Counted from the stretch's first letter, positions 13,440 through 46,169 are shown. The stretch is 64,000 bases of DNA from Candidatus Thorarchaeota archaeon (GCA_038893995.1 JAWAQK010000001.1:32001-96000); one strand, 5' to 3'. Translations and numbers: made by a program. The notes: generated by a model not told the origin, from the sequence alone.

Positions 13440-13829
13440 ATGAGCGTGAAGGAGCCGGAACATCGTTGCGACTGGTGTGGGGCAGAGGTTTCACAGTTTC
13501 GCTATAAGAACGGCAGGAAGGTCTACTGCTCAGGGAAATGCTGGTCAGCAGGAATGTACCCGCTTTTCTTGCCCCTCTTCGTCTTCCTTGTTTCGTTTGA
13601 TGTGCTGATCATGTTGTTCCCAAGTCAGGTAGTGTACATGTTTCTACGATATCAAGGATACAACGGTCCGTTGCCAAGTGAGCTCAATCTGGCACTCTTC
13701 ACTGTGATTGCGCAGATCTCATTACTCGTACTGATGACGCTGTGGACTGGGAACGAGGTATGGATAGGTCGGAAGGTCCGTCGTGAAGTTAGGCAACATA
13801 CAGACAACTTGACGTCACATCAAATATAG
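13440..13829 (+). CDS. Small membrane protein with N-terminal TRASH/FCS-like Zn finger
   Basis: CDWCG...YCSGKC followed by two hydrophobic helices. Confidence 0.6.
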   Translation: MSVKEPEHRCDWCGAEVSQFRYKNGRKVYCSGKCWSAGMYPLFLPLFVFLVSFDVLIMLFPSQVVYMFLRYQGYNGPLPSELNLALFTVIAQISLLVLMTLWTGNEVWIGRKVRREVRQHTDNLTSHQI

Positions 13830-13905
13830 CATCATTCAGAACTCCGCGATGCGAGGGACAGACATTCCAGCAGATTGTATGATACGCCCGACCTCGCAGA
13901 CCTTG

Positions 13906-14964
13906 TCAGGACCTGGGAAGCAAGCGCCGTTTAAGTTCAGACTTCACGAACTCCTCACGGACAGTGTTATCTGCACCCATCACAAACCGACGCAGCTCTT
14001 CGACCATCGATGATAGACCGTCTGCTGCGCTGATATAGGTGCTCAGGACGGATGATCCATCACGGAGATGTGCTGCGATTGCGAGCGCTGCCATCTCGCC
14101 ACTCTCTATGGCAGGACGGATGCCCTCACCCGAGAGGGGATTGCATAGCCCTGCAGCGTCTCCGACCAGTAGCACATTCTCGGTACCGTAGATTGTGGGA
14201 CCGATGGGAATGGACCATCTCTCATTGTTGAGCCTCTCCCGGCAGATCAGCAGACCCTCTCTCTCCAGCCACTCTCTTAGCATACGGAGGGAGGCTGTGA
14301 TGTTCATTCTGGATCCTGAGAGAACGCCGGTCCCAACGATGACCTTTCCATCTTTAGGAATGAGATACGAACAGGCAGGCGAGATGTGTCTGTCAAATAG
14401 GACATAGAAGTCGCTCTCATAGTTCCCATCGCCATGCCATGTTTCCTGACCGACAATCATCAGGTTGAACTGACATTGTGGGAACAGAACACGTCTGACA
14501 GAGGACCGTGCCCCATCTGCCCCGACGACGAAACGTGTGCGAAACAAGCAGGGATGACCCTCCACTTCACAGGCGACCAAGATGTCATCGGTCTGCTCAA
14601 GTGAGATGAATCTGGTCGAGAACATCACACTCACACCCTCGTCACGGGCCAGGTCGATCAACCACTTGTCGAATGCGTCACGGTCGATATTATGGACCTC
14701 GTACCCATGCATCCTTCCGCCATTTGTCAGACCACTGGGCGGAACATAGGTCAGACCAAGCTGTGGGGGGTACGCACTTACCTCGGGAGGAATGTCTCGG
14801 CCCAAGATCTGTTCGATTATGTCAGGGGCTACCAGAGGAAGTACACCGCCGCAGGGCTTGTGTCTTCCCCGCTCCCCTTTCTCCATCAGGAGTACGTTGA
14901 AACCCTGCCGGGCGCAACACACAGCTGCTGATACACCGCCGGGCCCCCCACCCACTACTATCAC
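13906..14964 (-). CDS. Geranylgeranyl-reductase-family flavoprotein (LipT-like by context)
   Basis: VVGGGPGG, KPCGG, IDRDAFD, VGADG, VGDAAGLCNPLSGEGI; last gene of the lipS operon; true start probably ~14982. Confidence 0.8.
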   Translation of the reverse strand: MIVVGGGPGGVSAAVCCARQGFNVLLMEKGERGRHKPCGGVLPLVAPDIIEQILGRDIPPEVSAYPPQLGLTYVPPSGLTNGGRMHGYEVHNIDRDAFDKWLIDLARDEGVSVMFSTRFISLEQTDDILVACEVEGHPCLFRTRFVVGADGARSSVRRVLFPQCQFNLMIVGQETWHGDGNYESDFYVLFDRHISPACSYLIPKDGKVIVGTGVLSGSRMNITASLRMLREWLEREGLLICRERLNNERWSIPIGPTIYGTENVLLVGDAAGLCNPLSGEGIRPAIESGEMAALAIAAHLRDGSSVLSTYISAADGLSSMVEELRRFVMGADNTVREEFVKSELKRRLLPRS

Positions 14965-37424: not shown

Positions 37425-39663
37425 CGTCAGCCTGGATGACGAAAAAGGGGACCTGATCCTGTGGATAAGGGATGAGACAGGGACCAAGGGACTCAGATAT
37501 CGTCGATTCAGACCGTCCCTGTTTGTGAAGACAGACCTGATCGACAGACCGGAGTTTCCGGTCAGAGAACTGATCAGGAGAGTCAGCGAGCATCCCAGAG
37601 TTCTCGGCGTTCGGCTTGTCAAGAGATACCTCTCCGTATATGACGAACATAGGAGCAAAGTACTACAGGTATTCGTCAGAGGAAACTCATTGCAGAGAGT
37701 TGCAGAAGACCTGGAAACATTGCCAGGGGCAATCGTGTTTCATGCAGACCTAGATGCCGTACAGCAGTTCTTCATCGACAGAGAGATCTTTCCCTTCAGT
37801 CTCATCGAGTATGAGACGGATGGCATCGAGTTGTTCGACATCAGGTGCCTCAGCAGGAGGGAGGAGGTAGAATACGAAGTGCCCCCGCTCAGAGAGATAC
37901 AGATTGAGCCATACATGGAAACGAGAGGCCCCTTTCCCAGAATCGAGGATCCAATTCACCACATTCGAGTTAGATTCGACAATCGGACTCTCTACGTGAG
38001 AGGACACAGCGAGAGAGAGACACTGTGTCTGTTTCAGGAGGTAATTGACCGCATAGACCCCGATATCATCATCACACGTGGCGGAGACGATGGAGTGCTA
38101 AGATATCTCAGCATGAGATACAGGGTCAACAACATGGCCCTGAGACTCTCAAGAGACGGAAGGCCGCTCATCATCAATGAGAGAGAACCGTCTTCATTCT
38201 GGCAGTACAATAGGATCGTCTTCAGACCGGGCAATCAGGTCATGCTCAGAGGCAGGATACATATAGATATGGCAGATAGTCTCTACTACGCGCCCTCCAG
38301 GGTGGAGGGGGTGATTGAGGGCTGTAGACTTGCGATGGCACCTCCCCAGAGAGTTGCACGTATGTCCATCGGAAGCGTCAACGCGGCAATGCAGTACTAC
38401 ACCGCAATGAAGAGGGAGATCCTCATTCCCCCAGTCAAGCGCAATCCCGAGTATCTCAAGACAGTGGAGAGGCTCCTCAATCTTGACAGGGGAGGGCTCA
38501 TACTTCAGCCACGTCCAGACATCTATGAAAATGTGGGGGAGTTTGATTTCTCATCGATGTATCCGACAATAATGATCACCAAGAACATCAGCCCTGAAAC
38601 TGTCTGCACACGAACCACCTGTCCCTACGATAAGAAATACTGCATCGATGTTCCAGAACTCGACTACAAGATATGTGGCCGAAAGAGGGGACTTGTGCCC
38701 GAGTCATTAGAGCTAGTGGTCAAGAAGAGAAATCAGCTCAAGAGGCTCATGCTTGACGGAAAGGACGTCAGACGGCATGGAGTCATCCAGAACACCCTCA
38801 AGGGAATACTGGTCTCCTGTTTTGGATACCTCGGATTTAGAAACGCCCGATTTGGCCGTGTTGAGGCGCATGCTGCAGTGACGGCCTTTGCGCGAGACAT
38901 TCTGCTCAGGACGCAGGAGATTGCGGAGGAGAGAGGCCTTGAGTTGGTGCATGGGATCGTCGATTCTCTCTGGGTACACTCGAGAACAGAGTTGGGTCAC
39001 CAAGACCTGTTGGAGTTCGCCAGACAAGTCACCGAGTGCGTCGGCATTGAGATGACGCTGAAGGGAGTCTACAGATGGATGGTCGTGCCATCATCAAGAC
39101 TGCATCCAGTGGTAGCACCCATGAATCGTTACTACGGAGTATATCGGAATGGTTCAATAAAGGTCAGGGGTATTGAGGCCAGACGCAGAGACACTTGTCT
39201 CTACGTGAGGGACTGTCAAAAGGAGATGATCCGGACGCTTGCACATGCACCAGACAGAGATGCTCTTATCCGGGCAATACCCGATGCGAGGGCGGTCTGT
39301 GAGGAATTCATCCGGAAACTGAGGGAGGGAGATGTTGACATTAGAGACCTGGTCCTGCAGTCAAGACTGACACATCATCCGGATGAGTATCATGGTACTA
39401 CAAGAGTGGCGGTGGCAGCCCGCCAGTTAGCAGGCATGGGACGGAGACTCTACCCTGGACAAAGCGTGCGATACATAATGGTGGAGTCCAAGTCAAGGAA
39501 CCCGGCTCGACGGGTGAGGGCCATCGAGCTGGTAGATGAATCCACAAGATATGACCCGGACGCATATTCGGAACTCTGTATCCGTGCCTTCGAGAATCTG
39601 ATACCGGCCCAGTATCTCGACTCATCATCAGAACTGGCTCACTCGGAGACCAGATTGACCTGA
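37390..39663 (+). CDS. Family B DNA polymerase, PolB2/Dpo2 group
   Basis: DFSSMYP, KGILVSCFGYLG, HGIVDSLW (PolB2 variant of YGDTDS), KVRGIEARRRD; degenerate exonuclease. Confidence 0.9.
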   Translation: MPAAKKRGWLLDVSLDDEKGDLILWIRDETGTKGLRYRRFRPSLFVKTDLIDRPEFPVRELIRRVSEHPRVLGVRLVKRYLSVYDEHRSKVLQVFVRGNSLQRVAEDLETLPGAIVFHADLDAVQQFFIDREIFPFSLIEYETDGIELFDIRCLSRREEVEYEVPPLREIQIEPYMETRGPFPRIEDPIHHIRVRFDNRTLYVRGHSERETLCLFQEVIDRIDPDIIITRGGDDGVLRYLSMRYRVNNMALRLSRDGRPLIINEREPSSFWQYNRIVFRPGNQVMLRGRIHIDMADSLYYAPSRVEGVIEGCRLAMAPPQRVARMSIGSVNAAMQYYTAMKREILIPPVKRNPEYLKTVERLLNLDRGGLILQPRPDIYENVGEFDFSSMYPTIMITKNISPETVCTRTTCPYDKKYCIDVPELDYKICGRKRGLVPESLELVVKKRNQLKRLMLDGKDVRRHGVIQNTLKGILVSCFGYLGFRNARFGRVEAHAAVTAFARDILLRTQEIAEERGLELVHGIVDSLWVHSRTELGHQDLLEFARQVTECVGIEMTLKGVYRWMVVPSSRLHPVVAPMNRYYGVYRNGSIKVRGIEARRRDTCLYVRDCQKEMIRTLAHAPDRDALIRAIPDARAVCEEFIRKLREGDVDIRDLVLQSRLTHHPDEYHGTTRVAVAARQLAGMGRRLYPGQSVRYIMVESKSRNPARRVRAIELVDESTRYDPDAYSELCIRAFENLIPAQYLDSSSELAHSETRLT

Positions 39664-41153: not shown

Positions 41154-41948
41154 TCAGTCATGATGTAATGTCTGCCGATTTCCCCGGCGCCACTGCTCAA
41201 ATATGGCCATGTACATACACTCATCTGGGGGAATCCACATCTCAGAGGAATCGAATGAGCGGTCCACAAACTCAACGGGAGCGTCTCTCACAAGCACTGC
41301 AGGAACGGACTCATCGGACTCTCCCATCACTGCTGTACAGGCAGAGGCGATATTGTCAGCAACGGCCCTCCGAGTGATCCTGAGACGATTCCCGAAGAGG
41401 TCCTGTCGACCCCGATCGTCAGCTACCGGGCGAAATCCGGAGACTCCCAACGCCATGCCTATGTTACCGAGCCGCAGGGGCTGAGTCCGACTGTCAATCA
41501 CCATCACGCCTATGGATTTGCCGAACCGTCTCCGGACCTCCTGCCTGATTCTCTCTGCGCTTCCAGCGGGGTCTCTGGGTAACAGACATGCAAACCCTGG
41601 AGGCACATTCGACTTGTCGATACCAGCATTGGCCATCAGCGTGTTGTCCTTGATCGTGAGGACCACGTGAGGAATCCCGCCCAGGATCTCGTCAGACTCG
41701 CGCAGGATCAGCTCGGCGACGGCCGGCAGGAGATCGTACTTCTTCGCGAGCTCCTCGGCGCGGGGAGATACTGTCACCGTGGATAGTCGAATGACGCATC
41801 CCTCAGTCGTCCCAAGCGGAGTCTCAGCGACAACTAGAATGTCACGATCCTGAAACTCGTACCCCGCCCGGTGCATTCCTTCGGTTATCACGTCAAGAAT
41901 GTTGTCAGTAGGAGTTATGATGCGTGTCCTTATTGGCAAGACCAGCAA
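41154..41948 (-). CDS. cofE: Coenzyme F420-0:L-glutamate ligase
   Basis: ANAGIDKSN, LLPRDP, IDSRTQPLRLG, DLFG, VMGESDE. Confidence 0.9.
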   Translation of the reverse strand: MLVLPIRTRIITPTDNILDVITEGMHRAGYEFQDRDILVVAETPLGTTEGCVIRLSTVTVSPRAEELAKKYDLLPAVAELILRESDEILGGIPHVVLTIKDNTLMANAGIDKSNVPPGFACLLPRDPAGSAERIRQEVRRRFGKSIGVMVIDSRTQPLRLGNIGMALGVSGFRPVADDRGRQDLFGNRLRITRRAVADNIASACTAVMGESDESVPAVLVRDAPVEFVDRSFDSSEMWIPPDECMYMAIFEQWRRGNRQTLHHD

Positions 41949-42108
41949 TCTTGGACCCTCGACTCCGTACGACAGGAATCTCTAGAAAAAGGCACCGTCA
42001 TGCAGGTACTATTGCCGCGCAACTCGTATGCCGACGTGGCTACGCGATCAGGCGGGTTGTGTCAGGGAGGTATGTCTATATCGATGATGCTGCTGGGGGA
42101 GCAACAAC

Positions 42109-43026
42109 ATGTTCGTGTTCAAGAGAGAGCAGACAGTCTTTGACGCAGGAGGTGTCAGGATAGGCGGTCAGCCAGGTGAGAATCCCACAGTCCTCGTTGG
42201 AGGTCTGTTCTTCAAGGGTCAGCCGATAGTTGAGGATGTCAGCAGTGGGAGGTTTGATCAGGCACTGGCTGCTGAATGGATATCGACTGCGATGGGCATG
42301 TCCCAGAGGACTGGGCATCCGCTCATCCTGCAGGTCTATGGCGCCACGCCAGAGGCAATGGAGAGGCATCTACAGTGGGTCACAGAGAAGTTCGATGGCC
42401 CCTTCATGTTTGAGTCTACCAACAGTGATGCAAGGAAGCGAGGTATCACCTACTGCAGTGAAGTCGGACTCGAGAACAGGACCATTTACAACTCGGTCAA
42501 CATGTCCATGAGGGATGACGAGAGAGAAACTCTGAGGAACAGTCCGATACACATGGCGGTCATCCTTGGATGGTCACCCCGGATTGTCTCAATGCTGGAC
42601 AGGATGGAACTGATCAGGTCCACATTGAGTGAGGCGGAGGGCCTGGGAATCGATGTCTTCCTCGTGGATCCAGCCGTGATGCCAGTCGGAGCGGGCTATG
42701 GGAGTGAGTACAGGACCCTGATCTCCATCAAGGCAGAACTTGGACTCCCGACCTGTCTTGGGCCTCACAATGCGGTGTCGTCCTGGAGCTACCTCAGACA
42801 ACACAGTTCCGACAATAGAGACATGTATCTTGCATCAATCGCTGCGTCTGTCGCTGCGGCTCAGGTCTGTGCCGCGGACTGCATAATGTTCGGTTCTCTG
42901 CAGTGGGCGAGGGAGATATTCGCATCAGTGGCACTCGTTCAGAACGCCATAGTGACAGCTGTGGGAGAGGCTGACGAGACACTCGGGCTGAAGCGAGATC
43001 TGTTCGAACCACCAACATGCAGATAG
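42109..43026 (+). CDS. mtrH: MtrH-family pterin:corrinoid methyltransferase (divergent copy)
   Basis: MFVFKREQ..IGGQPGENPTVL, IYNSVN, GLPTCLGPHN. Confidence 0.85.
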   Translation: MFVFKREQTVFDAGGVRIGGQPGENPTVLVGGLFFKGQPIVEDVSSGRFDQALAAEWISTAMGMSQRTGHPLILQVYGATPEAMERHLQWVTEKFDGPFMFESTNSDARKRGITYCSEVGLENRTIYNSVNMSMRDDERETLRNSPIHMAVILGWSPRIVSMLDRMELIRSTLSEAEGLGIDVFLVDPAVMPVGAGYGSEYRTLISIKAELGLPTCLGPHNAVSSWSYLRQHSSDNRDMYLASIAASVAAAQVCAADCIMFGSLQWAREIFASVALVQNAIVTAVGEADETLGLKRDLFEPPTCR

Positions 43027-43039
43027 GGGGTGCTGAGAC

Positions 43040-43732
43040 ATGACCAATTCTGACAAGCGAAAGTGGCCGCCGGTACCAGGTGACTACCGTGTCGGGAATG
43101 CCAGCAGCCCTGTCGCCATCTGCACACTGGGAAAATGGATTGATGTCGATGTCGACTACGCGATTCTTGGCACCTGCAAGACAGAGAACATAGGAATTGA
43201 ACGGATCATCGTAAATACCATATCAAATCCTCACATCCGATTCTTCATTCTTGCAGGCCCCGAGGTCCCAGGACACAGGACCGGTGCCTCGATAAGAGCC
43301 CTGTTTCAGAACGGGGTCGATCCCAGAGACCGCAGAATAGTAGGAGCCGAGGGCGCAATACCCTACATCGAGAACATTCCACTCGAGGCAATCGAACGTT
43401 TCCGGAGGCAGCTTACGCTCTGCGACATGTTAGATGTGGTAGAACCCGAGAGAATCAGGGCGGCGGCAGTGGCCCTTATCTCAAGACCAGTGGAACCTCT
43501 CGCAGAGGAACCGATGTGGGTTGACTTTGGGTCAGGCAAGCGAAGTACGCAGCATGCGATGCAGGCAGGGAGTGTCTCTTTAGTCCCCGAGTTAGGACTG
43601 GTCCTGGATCCGCGCATATCCATGGTATCCAGACAGAGCCGAAGTGCAACGGTGACCCAGCATCCGTCACCAGCGGGCGTGGAGATTCAGACTAGGGATG
43701 GGGGAACACTACTGATGGCAAGGGGGTATTGA
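43040..43732 (+). CDS. mtrA: Soluble MtrA-family corrinoid protein without membrane anchor
   Basis: WPPVPGDY, CKTENIGIERII, SNPHIRF, EVPGH (Co-ligating His), GAIPYIEN; no TM helix. Confidence 0.9.
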   Translation: MTNSDKRKWPPVPGDYRVGNASSPVAICTLGKWIDVDVDYAILGTCKTENIGIERIIVNTISNPHIRFFILAGPEVPGHRTGASIRALFQNGVDPRDRRIVGAEGAIPYIENIPLEAIERFRRQLTLCDMLDVVEPERIRAAAVALISRPVEPLAEEPMWVDFGSGKRSTQHAMQAGSVSLVPELGLVLDPRISMVSRQSRSATVTQHPSPAGVEIQTRDGGTLLMARGY

Positions 43733-43735
43733 GAG

Positions 43736-44671
43736 TTGTTTGTGTTCGAGAGAGAACAATACATCTACAACATCGGAGGCGTCAGGATAGGGGGCAACCC
43801 GGGCGAGAGAGCGACTGTACTGGCTGGCACCATATTCTATTCGGGAGACAAGACTGTCAGCGACCCCAGTGCGGGTGTGTTCGACAGGACCGCGGCCGAG
43901 ACACAGATCCGGAACCAGGATGCGATCTCAGAGACTACGGGAAATCCTGCACTGGTACAGGTATTCGCAGAGTCGGAGAGCGCCATGACGAGGTATATCG
44001 ACTTCGTGACCGAGATGACAGACGCTCCGTTCCTCATTGACTCCACGGATCCGAAGGTCCGGATAGCCGGTCTCAGACACGCAGAAGAGGTGGGAGTCAT
44101 AGGTCGGGCCATCTACAACTCGCTCAATGTCAGCATCAACACAGAAGAGTTGCAGACTCTCTCCGAACTGAGACCAGAGGCCGCGATCATATTGGCTTTC
44201 AATCCTGCCGACACGTCAATTGCTGGAAGACGTGCAGTGCTAGAGGAACCGTATGCTGAGTATGGCGAGGGTCTGCTATCACTTGCCAAGAGGGTCGGAA
44301 TAACAAAGCCCCTCGTCGATACCGCAACTACTGCTATGGGCGCAGGAGCAGGTCCATCTGTGTCTTTCGTGTTCGTGGCCAAGAGCGTCTATGGTCACCC
44401 AACAGGATCTGGAATCCACAACGCTCCATCATCGTGGCCATGGCTGAGAGCGCACAAGAAGGTCAACCGTGCGGCCTTTGAGGCATGTGATGTCGCATCG
44501 GCACTGCTCGTACATTCTATGGGGGCGGACTTCATCTTGTACGGGCCCATCGTGAATGCAGACAGGGTCTTTCCTGTGGTGGCCATGGCTGATGTCCTGG
44601 CCGCAGAGTCTCTGTCTACGGAGTTTGGTCTGGGGCCACCTGAGAATCACCCATTCCGAAGGCTCCTATGA
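43736..44671 (+). CDS. mtrH: MtrH-family pterin:corrinoid methyltransferase (canonical-like copy)
   Basis: PFLIDST, IYNSLN, GSGIHNAPSSW, DFILYGPI. Confidence 0.92.
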   Translation: MFVFEREQYIYNIGGVRIGGNPGERATVLAGTIFYSGDKTVSDPSAGVFDRTAAETQIRNQDAISETTGNPALVQVFAESESAMTRYIDFVTEMTDAPFLIDSTDPKVRIAGLRHAEEVGVIGRAIYNSLNVSINTEELQTLSELRPEAAIILAFNPADTSIAGRRAVLEEPYAEYGEGLLSLAKRVGITKPLVDTATTAMGAGAGPSVSFVFVAKSVYGHPTGSGIHNAPSSWPWLRAHKKVNRAAFEACDVASALLVHSMGADFILYGPIVNADRVFPVVAMADVLAAESLSTEFGLGPPENHPFRRLL

Positions 44672-44693
44672 CAGATGTCGAGGAATCCGGTCA

Positions 44694-46130
44694 ATGAGGT
44701 ACAGGATCATTCACCCGCGCGGCATAAGCATGCTCTCGGTCAGGCTGGGCTCCTTCTTCACTGTTGCGTCGGTTGAACTCGGCAATACCACGACCAAGTG
44801 TATCGTGGTCACCACTAATCTGAAGACGGCCGAGGTATTTGAGATTGGGAAGGAGGTGCGGATGACGCGTGACATCAGATTACCATGGGACGGGGAGACA
44901 CCATTTGGGCATACAATCACCCGCAGGCCTCTCACGAGAGAGGCTGTATCGGAGATGGTGAGTGACATCCTGACAACAACGGTGAAGCGCAATGGTATGG
45001 ATATGAAGACTGATCTTGACTTCGTCGTACGCTCTACAGGCGTTACGGCGGGATTCGCACATCCTGATGAAGTAGATGGGATGATCAGAGCGCTTGCAGA
45101 CGGTTGTCTGAATGCGGGCGTGCCACCTGGAAAGATGATGGCCGCAATGTCAGTAATCAACCTCAACCCACGATTGCGCTCCCACAGCTGGTTGAACAAG
45201 GTGCACTTCGATGGTGCAGTTGCGAGCTGTCTTCCACCGGCAGGCAGACAGGTGGTGGCAAATGAGATGGAGGGCGAGCTTGTCACTGCCGGAATAAAGG
45301 GGGCCGCCAAGGGTACGGGTATTGACTTCCGCAATCCAGTCGCCACGATGGACTTTGGAACGACCCTCGCAGGGAGAATCACAGACGACTCCTATCCGTA
45401 CGCAAACACAGTGGCCTCCTTTGTTGGCCTTGCAGGAGCCATTCCTGACGCCGTTGTGAGAGGGACCGGTTTCGTAGACAGGAACGAGGGATGCACCATC
45501 GACCTCACCTTACCGCACAAGAGAGAGGAGATAGAGGAATCGTCTTCGTGGTTGGAGGAGGCCAGCAGGATCATTACGGTCGATAGGGTGCCCAGGGGAG
45601 TGGAGAGGTTCGGGACTGTACCCGTAGACATGAGGGCTGCAGAGGAGGCAGACCTGACCTTGCTCGGAGTCGATGTGGGGTGCAATGGATCTAGACTAGC
45701 TGATCTTGGTGAGATAGGACTCAGCATTGTTCAGGAGAAGGGCCCAGAAATCTTGCACTCATTTCTTGATCATCTTCAGGCACGCATAGTCCACAGACTG
45801 ATAGAACTCGCTGAGTCAGAGGGACTGGTCAACGGACGCACATCGATAGGCCTCACAGGACGGGCGATAACAACTGGAATGAAACCTGAGCTGATCAGCA
45901 GCTGGCTGGAACGGTCTGGCGTATTGCCCCAGAGAGAGCAGGACATCGTAGTCTTTGTAGAAGATGGCCTCGCATTTGGCGCAGCTGTGGCCGCCAGGTG
46001 CATGAACTCACTGGGAACGCCTCATGAGCCAATGGGAGGACGTAGGGGAGACAGATGCATAATGGGGGCGCGCATGGCAATCCAGTCAGGCAGGGCTGGG
46101 GAGGTCAGGAGGAACTCGGCAGACAACTGA
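44694..46130 (+). CDS. Methanogenesis marker protein 14 (DUF2114, ASKHA-fold)
   Basis: VASVELGNTTTKCI, RMTRDIR, VVRSTGVTAG, ANEMEGELVTAGIK, DFGTTLAG, GLTGRA, EDGLAFGAAVAARCMNSLG. Confidence 0.85.
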   Translation: MRYRIIHPRGISMLSVRLGSFFTVASVELGNTTTKCIVVTTNLKTAEVFEIGKEVRMTRDIRLPWDGETPFGHTITRRPLTREAVSEMVSDILTTTVKRNGMDMKTDLDFVVRSTGVTAGFAHPDEVDGMIRALADGCLNAGVPPGKMMAAMSVINLNPRLRSHSWLNKVHFDGAVASCLPPAGRQVVANEMEGELVTAGIKGAAKGTGIDFRNPVATMDFGTTLAGRITDDSYPYANTVASFVGLAGAIPDAVVRGTGFVDRNEGCTIDLTLPHKREEIEESSSWLEEASRIITVDRVPRGVERFGTVPVDMRAAEEADLTLLGVDVGCNGSRLADLGEIGLSIVQEKGPEILHSFLDHLQARIVHRLIELAESEGLVNGRTSIGLTGRAITTGMKPELISSWLERSGVLPQREQDIVVFVEDGLAFGAAVAARCMNSLGTPHEPMGGRRGDRCIMGARMAIQSGRAGEVRRNSADN

Positions 46131-46169
46131 ACAAGTGCCGAAAAGTGCAGGCCCCTCTCCGGGATCATT

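What the first reader, a model, noticed from the sequence alone, without database searches (positions are those of the whole stretch)
42109..46130. Soluble mini-Mtr cassette: MtrH'-MtrA-MtrH-marker14, a possible pterin-to-pterin methyl shuttle
Seen: four tightly spaced co-oriented genes (gaps 3-22 nt). Two different MtrH paralogues flank one anchorless MtrA that keeps its Co-ligating His, followed by methanogenesis marker 14. No mtrCDE is present in the window, and cofE is divergent. Known: in methanogens MtrH transfers methyl from CH3-H4MPT to the MtrA corrinoid, MtrE passes it to CoM, and marker 14 usually lies next to mtr operons. Inference: a second MtrH replaces MtrE, so the system could move methyl groups between two carriers (e.g. 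H4MPT and H4folate, both reported for Thorarchaeia) or from an unknown donor, without Na+ pumping. Marker 14 could act as an ATP-dependent corrinoid reactivase or chaperone.
Basis: partly seen in the sequence, partly recalled or inferred. Interest (0 to 1): 0.85.

Follow-up and report, generated by a model that had tools for sequence, protein, structure and literature searches.

The report
Membrane-free, self-tethered B12 methyl relay
A hot-spring Asgard archaeon keeps a rebuilt, membrane-free piece of the methanogens' vitamin-B12 methyl pump, with two differently tuned methyltransferases around one B12 carrier; it probably passes methyl groups between C1 carriers in its relatives, but this genome lacks the enzymes that would feed such a shuttle.

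Summary
Observation confirmed: mtrH′ (42109-43026), anchorless mtrA (His79 kept), mtrH and marker 14, with gaps of 13, 3 and 22 nt, in a Thorarchaeia genome without mtrE or mcrA. The order holds in 40/40 relatives examined, normally as (metV)-metF-mtrH′-mtrA-mtrH-m14-cofE. Here the block is inverted and metF/V are gone, so 'divergent cofE' is a local rearrangement.

MtrA's membrane anchor is replaced by an MtrB-like MtrH-docking hairpin. MtrH is orthodox. MtrH′ keeps four pterin-ring residues but carries an invariant catalytic Asp→Glu and a changed tail pocket. Marker 14 has an ASKHA fold; its binding to MtrA has weak model support.

A folate/methanopterin methyl shuttle is the best class-wide reading (about 40%), but no specificity is shown. 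This genome has both carriers' methylene-level pathways yet no MetF, canonical Mer, ACS or methionine synthase, so the relay has no known feed here.

Adam et al. 2022 published Thorarchaeia MtrAH plus marker 14 (m26). The second MtrH, the MetF link and the tail were not found in the library. This scan already noted the cassette, with metF, on at least 10 other genomes. New variant of a known kind.

The parts
42109..43026 (+). mtrH′, diverged MtrH paralogue (305 aa). Keeps N128, D187, H220, N221 and the MtrB-docking R202. Clade-wide changes relative to canonical MtrH: T32G, Y35F, H38Q, D103E, F156W and loss of K242/K243
   Evidence: own long-branch clade inside the canonical-MtrH superclade
42412..42414 (+). 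Glu102 codon (GAG) at the position of catalytic Asp102 of MtgA / Asp103 of MtrH; Glu in 47/47 MtrH′
   Evidence: D102A abolishes MtgA activity (PMC7154762)
43040..43732 (+). mtrA, soluble cobamide-binding subunit (230 aa): MtrA domain about 6-165, flexible linker 166-175, beta-rich tail in place of the membrane anchor
   Evidence: model superposes on MtrA structures at 1.2-1.5 A rmsd
43274..43276 (+). His79 codon, lower axial cobalt ligand (His84/85 of methanogen MtrA)
43574..43645 (+). MtrB-like hairpin in the MtrA tail (residues 179-202, invariant P183-E184), matching the MtrB N-terminus that docks the MtrH dimer in methanogens
   Evidence: role of MtrB 1-23 from PMC12774963
43736..44671 (+). 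mtrH, orthodox copy (311 aa): T32, Y35, Q75, E79, D102, N128, D195, H228, N229 and the basic patch R238/K241/K242; lacks the MtrB-docking Arg
   Evidence: TIGR01114 356 bits against cut-off 271
44694..46130 (+). methanogenesis marker 14 (DUF2114, m26), 478 aa; ASKHA-fold putative ATPase with conserved ELGNTTTK (28) and DFGTTL (220) loops and no CxxC motif
41154..41948 (-). cofE-family glutamate ligase; last gene of the operon in relatives, divergent here through the inversion; the weakest-scoring of three CofE homologues in the genome
41949..42108 (.). left junction of the inversion; metF/metV, which precede mtrH′ in relatives, are absent here and genome-wide
46131..46169 (.). right junction, between marker 14 and the convergent hflX (in relatives hflX lies upstream of metF)

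Best explanation
A soluble, self-tethered cobamide methyl relay rebuilt from Mtr, linking two pterin C1 pools at the methyl level without ion pumping. Steps: (1) MtrA binds its cobamide through His79 [sequence shown; chemistry from known MtrA]. (2) Its MtrB-like tail docks it on an MtrH dimer, probably H/H′, replacing the membrane stalk, so the cobamide domain swings on the linker between two TIM-barrel sites [homology shown; docking and heterodimer inferred]. (3) Orthodox MtrH exchanges CH3 between a methanopterin-type N5-methyl-pterin and Co(I) [strongly inferred from residues]. (4) MtrH′ does the same for a second pterin with a different tail, most likely tetrahydrofolate, whose methyl form is made or oxidised by the co-transcribed MetF(V) in relatives [inferred]. 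(5) Marker 14, an ASKHA ATPase, binds MtrA to load, exchange or help reactivate the cobamide [fold shown, binding weakly modelled, function inferred]. This genome carries a rearranged, metF-less version whose feed and outlet are unidentified; it may run on an unrecognised reductase or on the RACE/MtaA-like/corrinoid cluster elsewhere in the genome.
For: Gene order H′-A-H-m14-cofE in 40/40 genomes from 15 genera, with metF directly upstream in 39/40 and metV in 20/40; metF is single-copy in 75/87 genomes. H′ keeps N128, D187, H220 and N221 in 47/47 copies, and its changes are themselves invariant (G32, E102, W155), which indicates selection on a ligand site. Of positions fixed in 74 Methanosarcinales MtrH, 31 are kept by H only and 5 by H′ only, including the MtrB-docking Arg211. 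The tail profile picks MtrB as all 40 top hits among 4,247 methanogen ORFs, and an MtrB profile picks this tail first among 12,142 ORFs of this genome (E 0.029, next 0.51). Both carrier branches are encoded: Mch and Fhs each in 39/40 family genomes. 33/40 have Mer or ACS (two Mer are partial at contig ends). In the other metF-less genome, G010, H′ has changed faster than in its genus sisters (37 vs 7 sites; other genes 130 vs 176; p 2e-7). Marker 14-MtrA model: score 0.53, best control 0.01, 'weak support'; the mark was reached by 58 of 80 solved and 2 of 110 mismatched pairs, and at 0.60 or under by only 7 solved and both mismatches; the runs share at least 54% of contacts, partner pLDDT at least 89; no marker 14 relative was found among solved structures.
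Against: No biochemistry exists for either MtrH. The Asp at this position is essential in MtgA and is Glu in H′. This genome (91% complete) has no MetF, canonical Mer, ACS, CoFeSP, MetE, MetH or MttB. 7/40 family genomes lack both Mer and ACS, and four of these also lack Mtd, yet keep the cassette. RFA-P synthase is present in only 1/41. Asgard MetF sequences branch with the ANME-1 type proposed to act on methanopterin itself (PMC9012536), which would remove the need for a shuttle; I did not place the Thorarchaeia MetF on that tree. The H′ speed-up is not exceptional class-wide (G010 ranks 6th, this genome 9th of 41) and here cannot be told from genome-wide acceleration (p 0.42).
Confidence: 0.4

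Rival explanations
1. One-site enzyme. H and H′ are a subfunctionalised heterodimer: H is the only catalyst, and H′ supplies the docking surface for the MtrA tail and cobamide-contact loops or is regulatory. CH3-MtrA then donates to, or is charged by, a partner outside the operon, and MetF(V) simply makes the methyl-pterin that H uses.
For: H′ alone keeps Arg211 (salt bridge to MtrB Glu9) and Pro201 (corrin contact), while H alone keeps the catalytic Asp and the tail patch. In canonical Mtr the MtrA domain was seen bound only to the membrane-proximal protomer of the MtrH dimer. D102A kills MtgA.
Against: Four pterin-ring residues are invariant in 47/47 H′, and Asp→Glu is paired with Thr→Gly in the same pocket. 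No known CH3-MtrA acceptor is encoded: MtrE 0/87, MetE 0/41, MetH homocysteine domain 0/41.
Confidence: 0.25
2. H′ is active but handles a donor or acceptor that is not folate or methanopterin (another pterin-like or amidine-bearing ring). The cassette funnels methyl from an unknown substrate into one pterin pool for oxidation through MetF or Mer, or methylates a biosynthetic target.
For: Nearly every pocket position outside the four ring-binding residues is changed and fixed. The cassette is more constant than Mer, Mtd or ACS and survives without MetF in this genome and in G010.
Against: All characterised members of the family that I could check (MtrH, MtgA) act on pterins. No transporter or substrate-specific gene travels with the cassette.
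Confidence: 0.2
3. In this lineage the cassette is a stranded relic: after loss of metF/V, mer and acs it has no flux, and H′ is drifting.
For: MetF, Mer and ACS not found. This H′ breaks otherwise near-invariant sites (R79A, L199S, P223V, A225S) and falls outside all other H′ in the tree while its H nests with G009.
Against: All four frames are intact with every key residue. H here is better conserved than in its nearest relative (7 vs 15 changed sites). The proteins are unchanged across samples. The genome is only 91% complete.
Confidence: 0.15

Closest known systems
Thorarchaeia 'canonical MtrAH' plus marker m26 (DUF2114), Adam et al. 2022, PMC9635834
   Same: Same lineage and genes: MtrA and MtrH without other Mtr subunits, with m26 tied to them by synteny.
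   Different: The passages retrieved treat it as a remnant. They mention no second MtrH, no metF(V) or cofE linkage, no MtrB-like tail, and no fold or role for m26.
Na+-translocating Mtr (MtrA-H) of methanogens (PDB 8Q3V, 9QTS; PMC10998594, PMC12774963)
   Same: His-ligated MtrA domain, orthodox MtrH, MtrB-type docking hairpin, marker 14 as companion.
   Different: No MtrE, no membrane anchor on MtrA, no Mcr; the docking hairpin is fused to MtrA; there are two unlike MtrH.
MtgA of Desulfitobacterium hafniense (PMC7154762) and MtgA/MtxH-like second-step methyltransferases
   Same: Same TIM barrel and pterin-ring residues; precedent for an MtrH-family enzyme that uses tetrahydrofolate.
   Different: H′ is not in that group (Q75 and H229 as in canonical MtrH; tree). 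In many Thorarchaeia a third, MtgA-like copy sits beside a Rossmann corrinoid protein and a RACE activator; this genome lacks that copy.
MtrAH fusion of Atabeyarchaeia and Freyarchaeia (PMC11291895); mtxXAH of Methanosarcina (from memory)
   Same: Soluble MtrA-like plus MtrH-like pairs of unknown function outside the membrane complex.
   Different: One MtrH only; marker 14 was not found in those Asgard families (1 of about 260 non-Thorarchaeia Asgard genomes searched).
ASKHA cobamide reactivases: EutA, diol dehydratase reactivase (2D0O), RACo (3ZYY)
   Same: Marker 14 shares the ASKHA fold; EutA is its nearest named family by Atlas features (0.83, a lead only).
   Different: The fold search ranks kinases, FtsA and Kae1 as high or higher (2D0O Z 13.1 against best 17.9). 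No Fe-S motif as in RACo or RamA.

Membership tests
Mtr complex (MtrA-H) | MtrA with Co-ligating His | tested here: met
   His79 invariant in 47/47; fold match 1.2-1.5 A
Mtr complex (MtrA-H) | C-terminal membrane anchor on MtrA | tested here: not met
   no hydrophobic segment; beta-rich tail
Mtr complex (MtrA-H) | MtrE (CoM site, Na+ translocation) | tested here: not met
   0/87 genomes; controls ring
Mtr complex (MtrA-H) | MtrC, MtrD, MtrF, MtrG elsewhere in the genome | not tested
   not searched by family; none lies in the cassette
Mtr complex (MtrA-H) | MtrB N-terminal MtrH-docking segment | tested here: met
   present as a fusion to MtrA; low E-values alone (0.002-0.16) but reciprocal best in three searches
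Canonical MtrH (gene at 43736) | TIGR01114 cut-off; D103, N129, D196, N230; basic patch 239/242/243 | tested here: met
   356 against 271 bits; all residues present
Canonical MtrH (gene at 42109) | TIGR01114 cut-off; catalytic Asp103; basic patch | tested here: not met
   241.5 against 271 bits; Glu in 47/47; K242/K243 lost
MtgA (folate-specific MtrH family) | S32, D75, D102, S226 and NF047990 cut-off | tested here: not met
   H′ has G32, Q75, E102, H220; 165 against 550 bits
Two-carrier methyl shuttle | different pterin specificity of H and H′ | not testable with these tools
   pocket residues differ systematically; needs an assay
Two-carrier methyl shuttle | folate and methanopterin branches both encoded | tested here: met
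   Fhs, FolD, FtcD, DHPS; FwdA, Ftr, Mch, Mtd; RFA-P synthase absent
Two-carrier methyl shuttle | a known source or sink of methyl-pterin in this genome (MetF, Mer, ACS, methionine synthase) | tested here: not met
   none found in a 91% complete genome
Methanogenesis marker 14 (TIGR03285) | score over cut-off | tested here: met
   599 against 274 bits
ASKHA ATPase superfamily | two-lobed actin-like fold with phosphate loops | tested here: met
   model pLDDT 82; top 50 VIA hits are ASKHA-type, best Z 17.9, rmsd 4.7, 310 aligned
RACE/RamA reductive activators | Fe-S cluster motif | tested here: not met
   no CxxC, no ferredoxin domain
EutA/DdrA-type cofactor-exchange reactivases | closest structural kin; ATP-dependent action on a cobamide protein | tested here: inconclusive
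   Atlas 0.83 for EutA; 2D0O rank 35; weak complex support

The most novel reading that the evidence does not exclude
Thorarchaeia rebuilt the methanogens' sodium pump into a soluble three-protein enzyme. MtrA carries its own MtrB-derived tether onto an H/H′ heterodimer that swaps methyl groups between tetrahydrofolate and a scavenged methanopterin, a direct bridge between the two C1 carrier systems. Marker 14, found with Mtr in methanogens and still without a function, is the ATP-dependent maintenance factor of the MtrA cobamide.
Probability: 0.25. Interest if true: 0.85.

Novelty: new variant of a known kind. Interest (0 to 1): 0.55.

Why it matters
The role of MtrAH outside methanogens is stated as open in the literature (PMC9635834, PMC11291895). 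Marker 14 accompanies Mtr in methanogens, and I found no function for it in the library. This cassette is small, soluble and membrane-free, so both questions become testable with four expressed proteins: which pterins an MtrH paralogue pair uses, and whether marker 14 keeps the MtrA cobamide active. It also shows how a membrane pump can be reduced to a soluble enzyme by fusing a docking strand onto the carrier. This genome adds a natural metF-less, rearranged version; it is a useful control but a poor host for the shuttle idea.

Tried and rejected
Conventional Mtr completed elsewhere: rejected for MtrE (0/87) and McrA. Methionine synthesis as the outlet of CH3-MtrA: no MetE-type or MetH homocysteine domain in 41 genomes. 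Mer bypass as the universal reason for the operon: canonical Mer is present in 20/41, mostly alongside metF. H′ as a recruited MtgA/MtxH: residues and trees place it with canonical MtrH. H and H′ as sisters: neither shown nor rejected (AU p 0.21). H′ decay after metF loss: significant for G010 against its genus sisters, not exceptional class-wide, and not separable from a fast lineage here. Assembly artefact for the inversion: two other assemblies give the same order. No clear inverted repeat at the junctions; the tblastn for a metF remnant at the junctions failed to run, but a MetF profile finds nothing genome-wide. Expression: no RNA holder listed. The sigma-70 promoter scan is not suited to archaea. 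PDB sequence search for marker 14: nothing. Literature: no paper in the library holds Thorarchae*, metF and mtrH together; Liu et al. 2018 was not held. ECF-like genes beside mch/fwd: no Pfam or NCBIfam hit.
Full report
OBSERVATION. The four genes are there as described: mtrH′ 42109-43026, mtrA 43040-43732, mtrH 43736-44671 and marker 14 44694-46130, with gaps of 13, 3 and 22 nt. Family assignments are firm, and the two MtrH are 39% identical. MtrA has no membrane helix and keeps the cobalt-ligating His79. The nearest named relatives are Thorarchaeota, and the runs that hold this DNA are hot-spring metagenomes. The genome is 91% complete and holds only these two MtrH, one MtrA and one marker 14. 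McrA is absent, and MtrE is absent from all 87 class genomes.

CONTEXT. The cassette is class-wide. In 40 of 40 other genomes, from 15 genera and chosen by their best MtrH hit, the order is H′-A-H-marker 14-cofE on one strand, mostly between hflX and larC. metF lies directly upstream in 39 and metV in 20, and this metF is the genome's only one (75 of 87 genomes, one copy each). In the window genome the four-gene block is inverted between cofE and hflX, and metF/V are missing locally and genome-wide. Two other assemblies show the same order, so it is real. Among 331 Asgard genomes, marker 14 occurs in 70 of 71 of this family and in one other genome, where it again adjoins cofE.

MtrA CARRIES ITS OWN TETHER. 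The model shows the MtrA domain, a flexible linker (166-175) and a small beta-rich tail. The only Pfam hit of the tail is MtrB positions 2-25 (E 0.074; 10 of 45 orthologous tails hit it, best 0.002), and its best PDB hit is MtrB. A tail profile returns MtrB as all of its top 40 hits among 4,247 methanogen ORFs. The reverse profile returns this tail first among 12,142 ORFs of the genome. In the Methanosarcina complex, MtrB 1-23 is the strand on which the MtrH dimer docks, through Glu9-Arg211 and Arg5-Asp5 (PMC12774963). The matching Glu184 is invariant. The membrane stalk has thus been replaced by a fused docking hairpin: homology shown, docking inferred.

THE TWO MtrH ARE SPECIALISED. Against 74 Methanosarcinales MtrH, the downstream copy keeps T32, Y35, E79, D103, F156 and the basic patch proposed for the methanopterin tail; 31 fixed positions are kept by it alone. 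It groups with canonical MtrH in trees. MtrH′ keeps the ring-binding N129, D196, H229 and N230 in 47 of 47 copies, but has fixed G32, F35, Q38, E103 and W156 (canonical numbering) and has lost K242/K243. It alone keeps Arg211 and Pro201. The Asp replaced by Glu is essential in MtgA (PMC7154762). The paired Thr→Gly change may make room for the longer side chain, which is inference. H′ is a long-branch clade inside the canonical-MtrH superclade (support 100/95), apart from the MtgA-like third copy that many Thorarchaeia keep beside a corrinoid protein and RACE activator. The complementary retention suggests a heterodimer; it does not decide whether H′ is catalytic.

MARKER 14. The model (pLDDT 82) has an ASKHA fold with conserved phosphate-loop motifs and no Fe-S motif. 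Its nearest named family by language-model features is the cobalamin reactivase EutA (0.83, a lead only). The fold search does not single out reactivases. A marker 14-MtrA complex scored 0.53 against a best control of 0.01. This is weak support: the mark was reached by 58 of 80 solved and 2 of 110 mismatched pairs, and at 0.60 or under by only 7 solved ones and both mismatches. The runs share at least 54% of contacts and the partner's pLDDT is at least 89. An ATP-dependent maintenance role for the MtrA cobamide is plausible; a self-sufficient reductive activator is not.

METABOLIC FIT. This genome encodes FwdA, Ftr, Mch and Mtd, mostly in one cluster, plus Fhs, FolD, FtcD, SHMT, glycine-cleavage genes (recognised by eye) and a dihydropteroate synthase. 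It has no MetF, no canonical Mer (best 186 against 349 bits; 27% identity to a class Mer), no ACS or CoFeSP, and no MetE, MetH or MttB. A RACE/MtaA-like/corrinoid cluster is present without its usual third MtrH. Across 40 family genomes at least 90% complete: Mch 39, Fhs 39, Mtd 28, Mer 20 plus 2 partial, ACS 18, RFA-P synthase 1, methionine synthases 0. Thirty-three have Mer or ACS. Seven, including this one, have neither. Asgard MetF has been grouped with the ANME-1 type that may act on methanopterin (PMC9012536), so the metF link does not by itself prove a folate side. H′ has changed fast in the other metF-less genome relative to its sisters, but not exceptionally for the class, and here not beyond the lineage's general rate, while H stays conserved.

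MECHANISM. Best reading (0.40): a tethered cobamide swings between an orthodox methanopterin-type site on H and a re-tooled pterin site on H′, exchanging methyl between two carriers without ion pumping, served by MetF(V) in most of the class and maintained by marker 14. Rivals: a one-site heterodimer with H′ as docking partner (0.25); H′ acting on an unknown donor or acceptor (0.20); a stranded relic in this lineage (0.15). Shown: gene set, synteny, absence of MtrE, tail homology, residue partition, ASKHA fold. Inferred: docking, heterodimer, specificities, direction, role of marker 14.

COMPARISON AND NOVELTY. It works like the soluble half of Mtr but is not a member of the Na+-pumping complex (no anchor, no MtrE). 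Adam et al. 2022 reported Thorarchaeia MtrAH with m26 = DUF2114; MtrAH fusions are known from other Asgards. I found no mention in the library of the second MtrH, the metF linkage, the MtrB-like tail or a fold for marker 14. This scan has noted the cassette, with metF, in at least ten other genomes; those notes are not independent evidence, but they prompted the tests for ACS and methanopterin synthesis. Verdict: real, conserved, partly published, a new variant of a known kind. The proposed shuttle is possible for the class and has no known feed in this genome. Interest 0.55.

Noticed in passing
window 41949-42108 and 46131-46169: The H′-A-H-marker 14 block is inverted relative to 40 other Thorarchaeia and metF/metV are lost; G010 (L041) has lost metF without the inversion and keeps Mer and CoFeSP.
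   Followed up: yes
L075-L094 (other Thorarchaeia): A third, MtgA-like MtrH (S32, D75) often lies beside a RACE activator and a Rossmann corrinoid protein; two genomes have it in tandem (L078, L079). Absent from this genome.
   Followed up: partly
L117:7743-11374 (G000 C25): RACE activator, MtaA/CmuA-like methyltransferase and corrinoid protein with no pterin methyltransferase; a possible feeder for the cassette.
   Followed up: partly
L116:6320-7093 and 13811-14578 (G000 C34): Two hydrophobic, apparently related genes bracket mch-ftr-fwd; no family hit. If they are importers they could explain the missing RFA-P synthase.
   Followed up: partly
L106 (G014): The only RFA-P synthase among 41 class genomes; it may be contamination or a retained ancestral gene.
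   Followed up: no
window 41154-41948; G000 C9, C22: Three CofE homologues. The one tied to marker 14 scores lowest as F420 ligase (196 against 251 and 255 bits) and highest against a putative folate glutamate ligase model (107 against 88 and 79), so it may glutamylate a pterin.
   Followed up: partly
L206:8946-11162 (G094, another Asgard family): cofE followed by marker 14 at a contig end, the only marker 14 found outside this family among the Asgard genomes searched.
   Followed up: no
L209: The closest relative of Thorarchaeia MtrH in the tree lies directly before a marker 14 gene, suggesting the mtrH-marker 14 adjacency is older than this class.
   Followed up: no
L119:2288-3301 (G000 C22): Mer-like luciferase-family gene below the Mer cut-off, next to an aldehyde-oxidoreductase-like gene; similar hits occur in most class genomes. 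An untested candidate methylene-pterin reductase.
   Followed up: partly
L121:3792-7380 (G000 C2): gcvH-gcvT divergent from a 403-aa dihydropteroate synthase with a C-terminal extension and mptE; a second, divergent mch lies on C5 (L122:6692-7693).
   Followed up: partly
window 33724-36609: Roadblock protein, two small Ras-like GTPases and a WD40 protein, typical Asgard eukaryote-like genes, upstream of a family B DNA polymerase (37348-39663) and larC.
   Followed up: no
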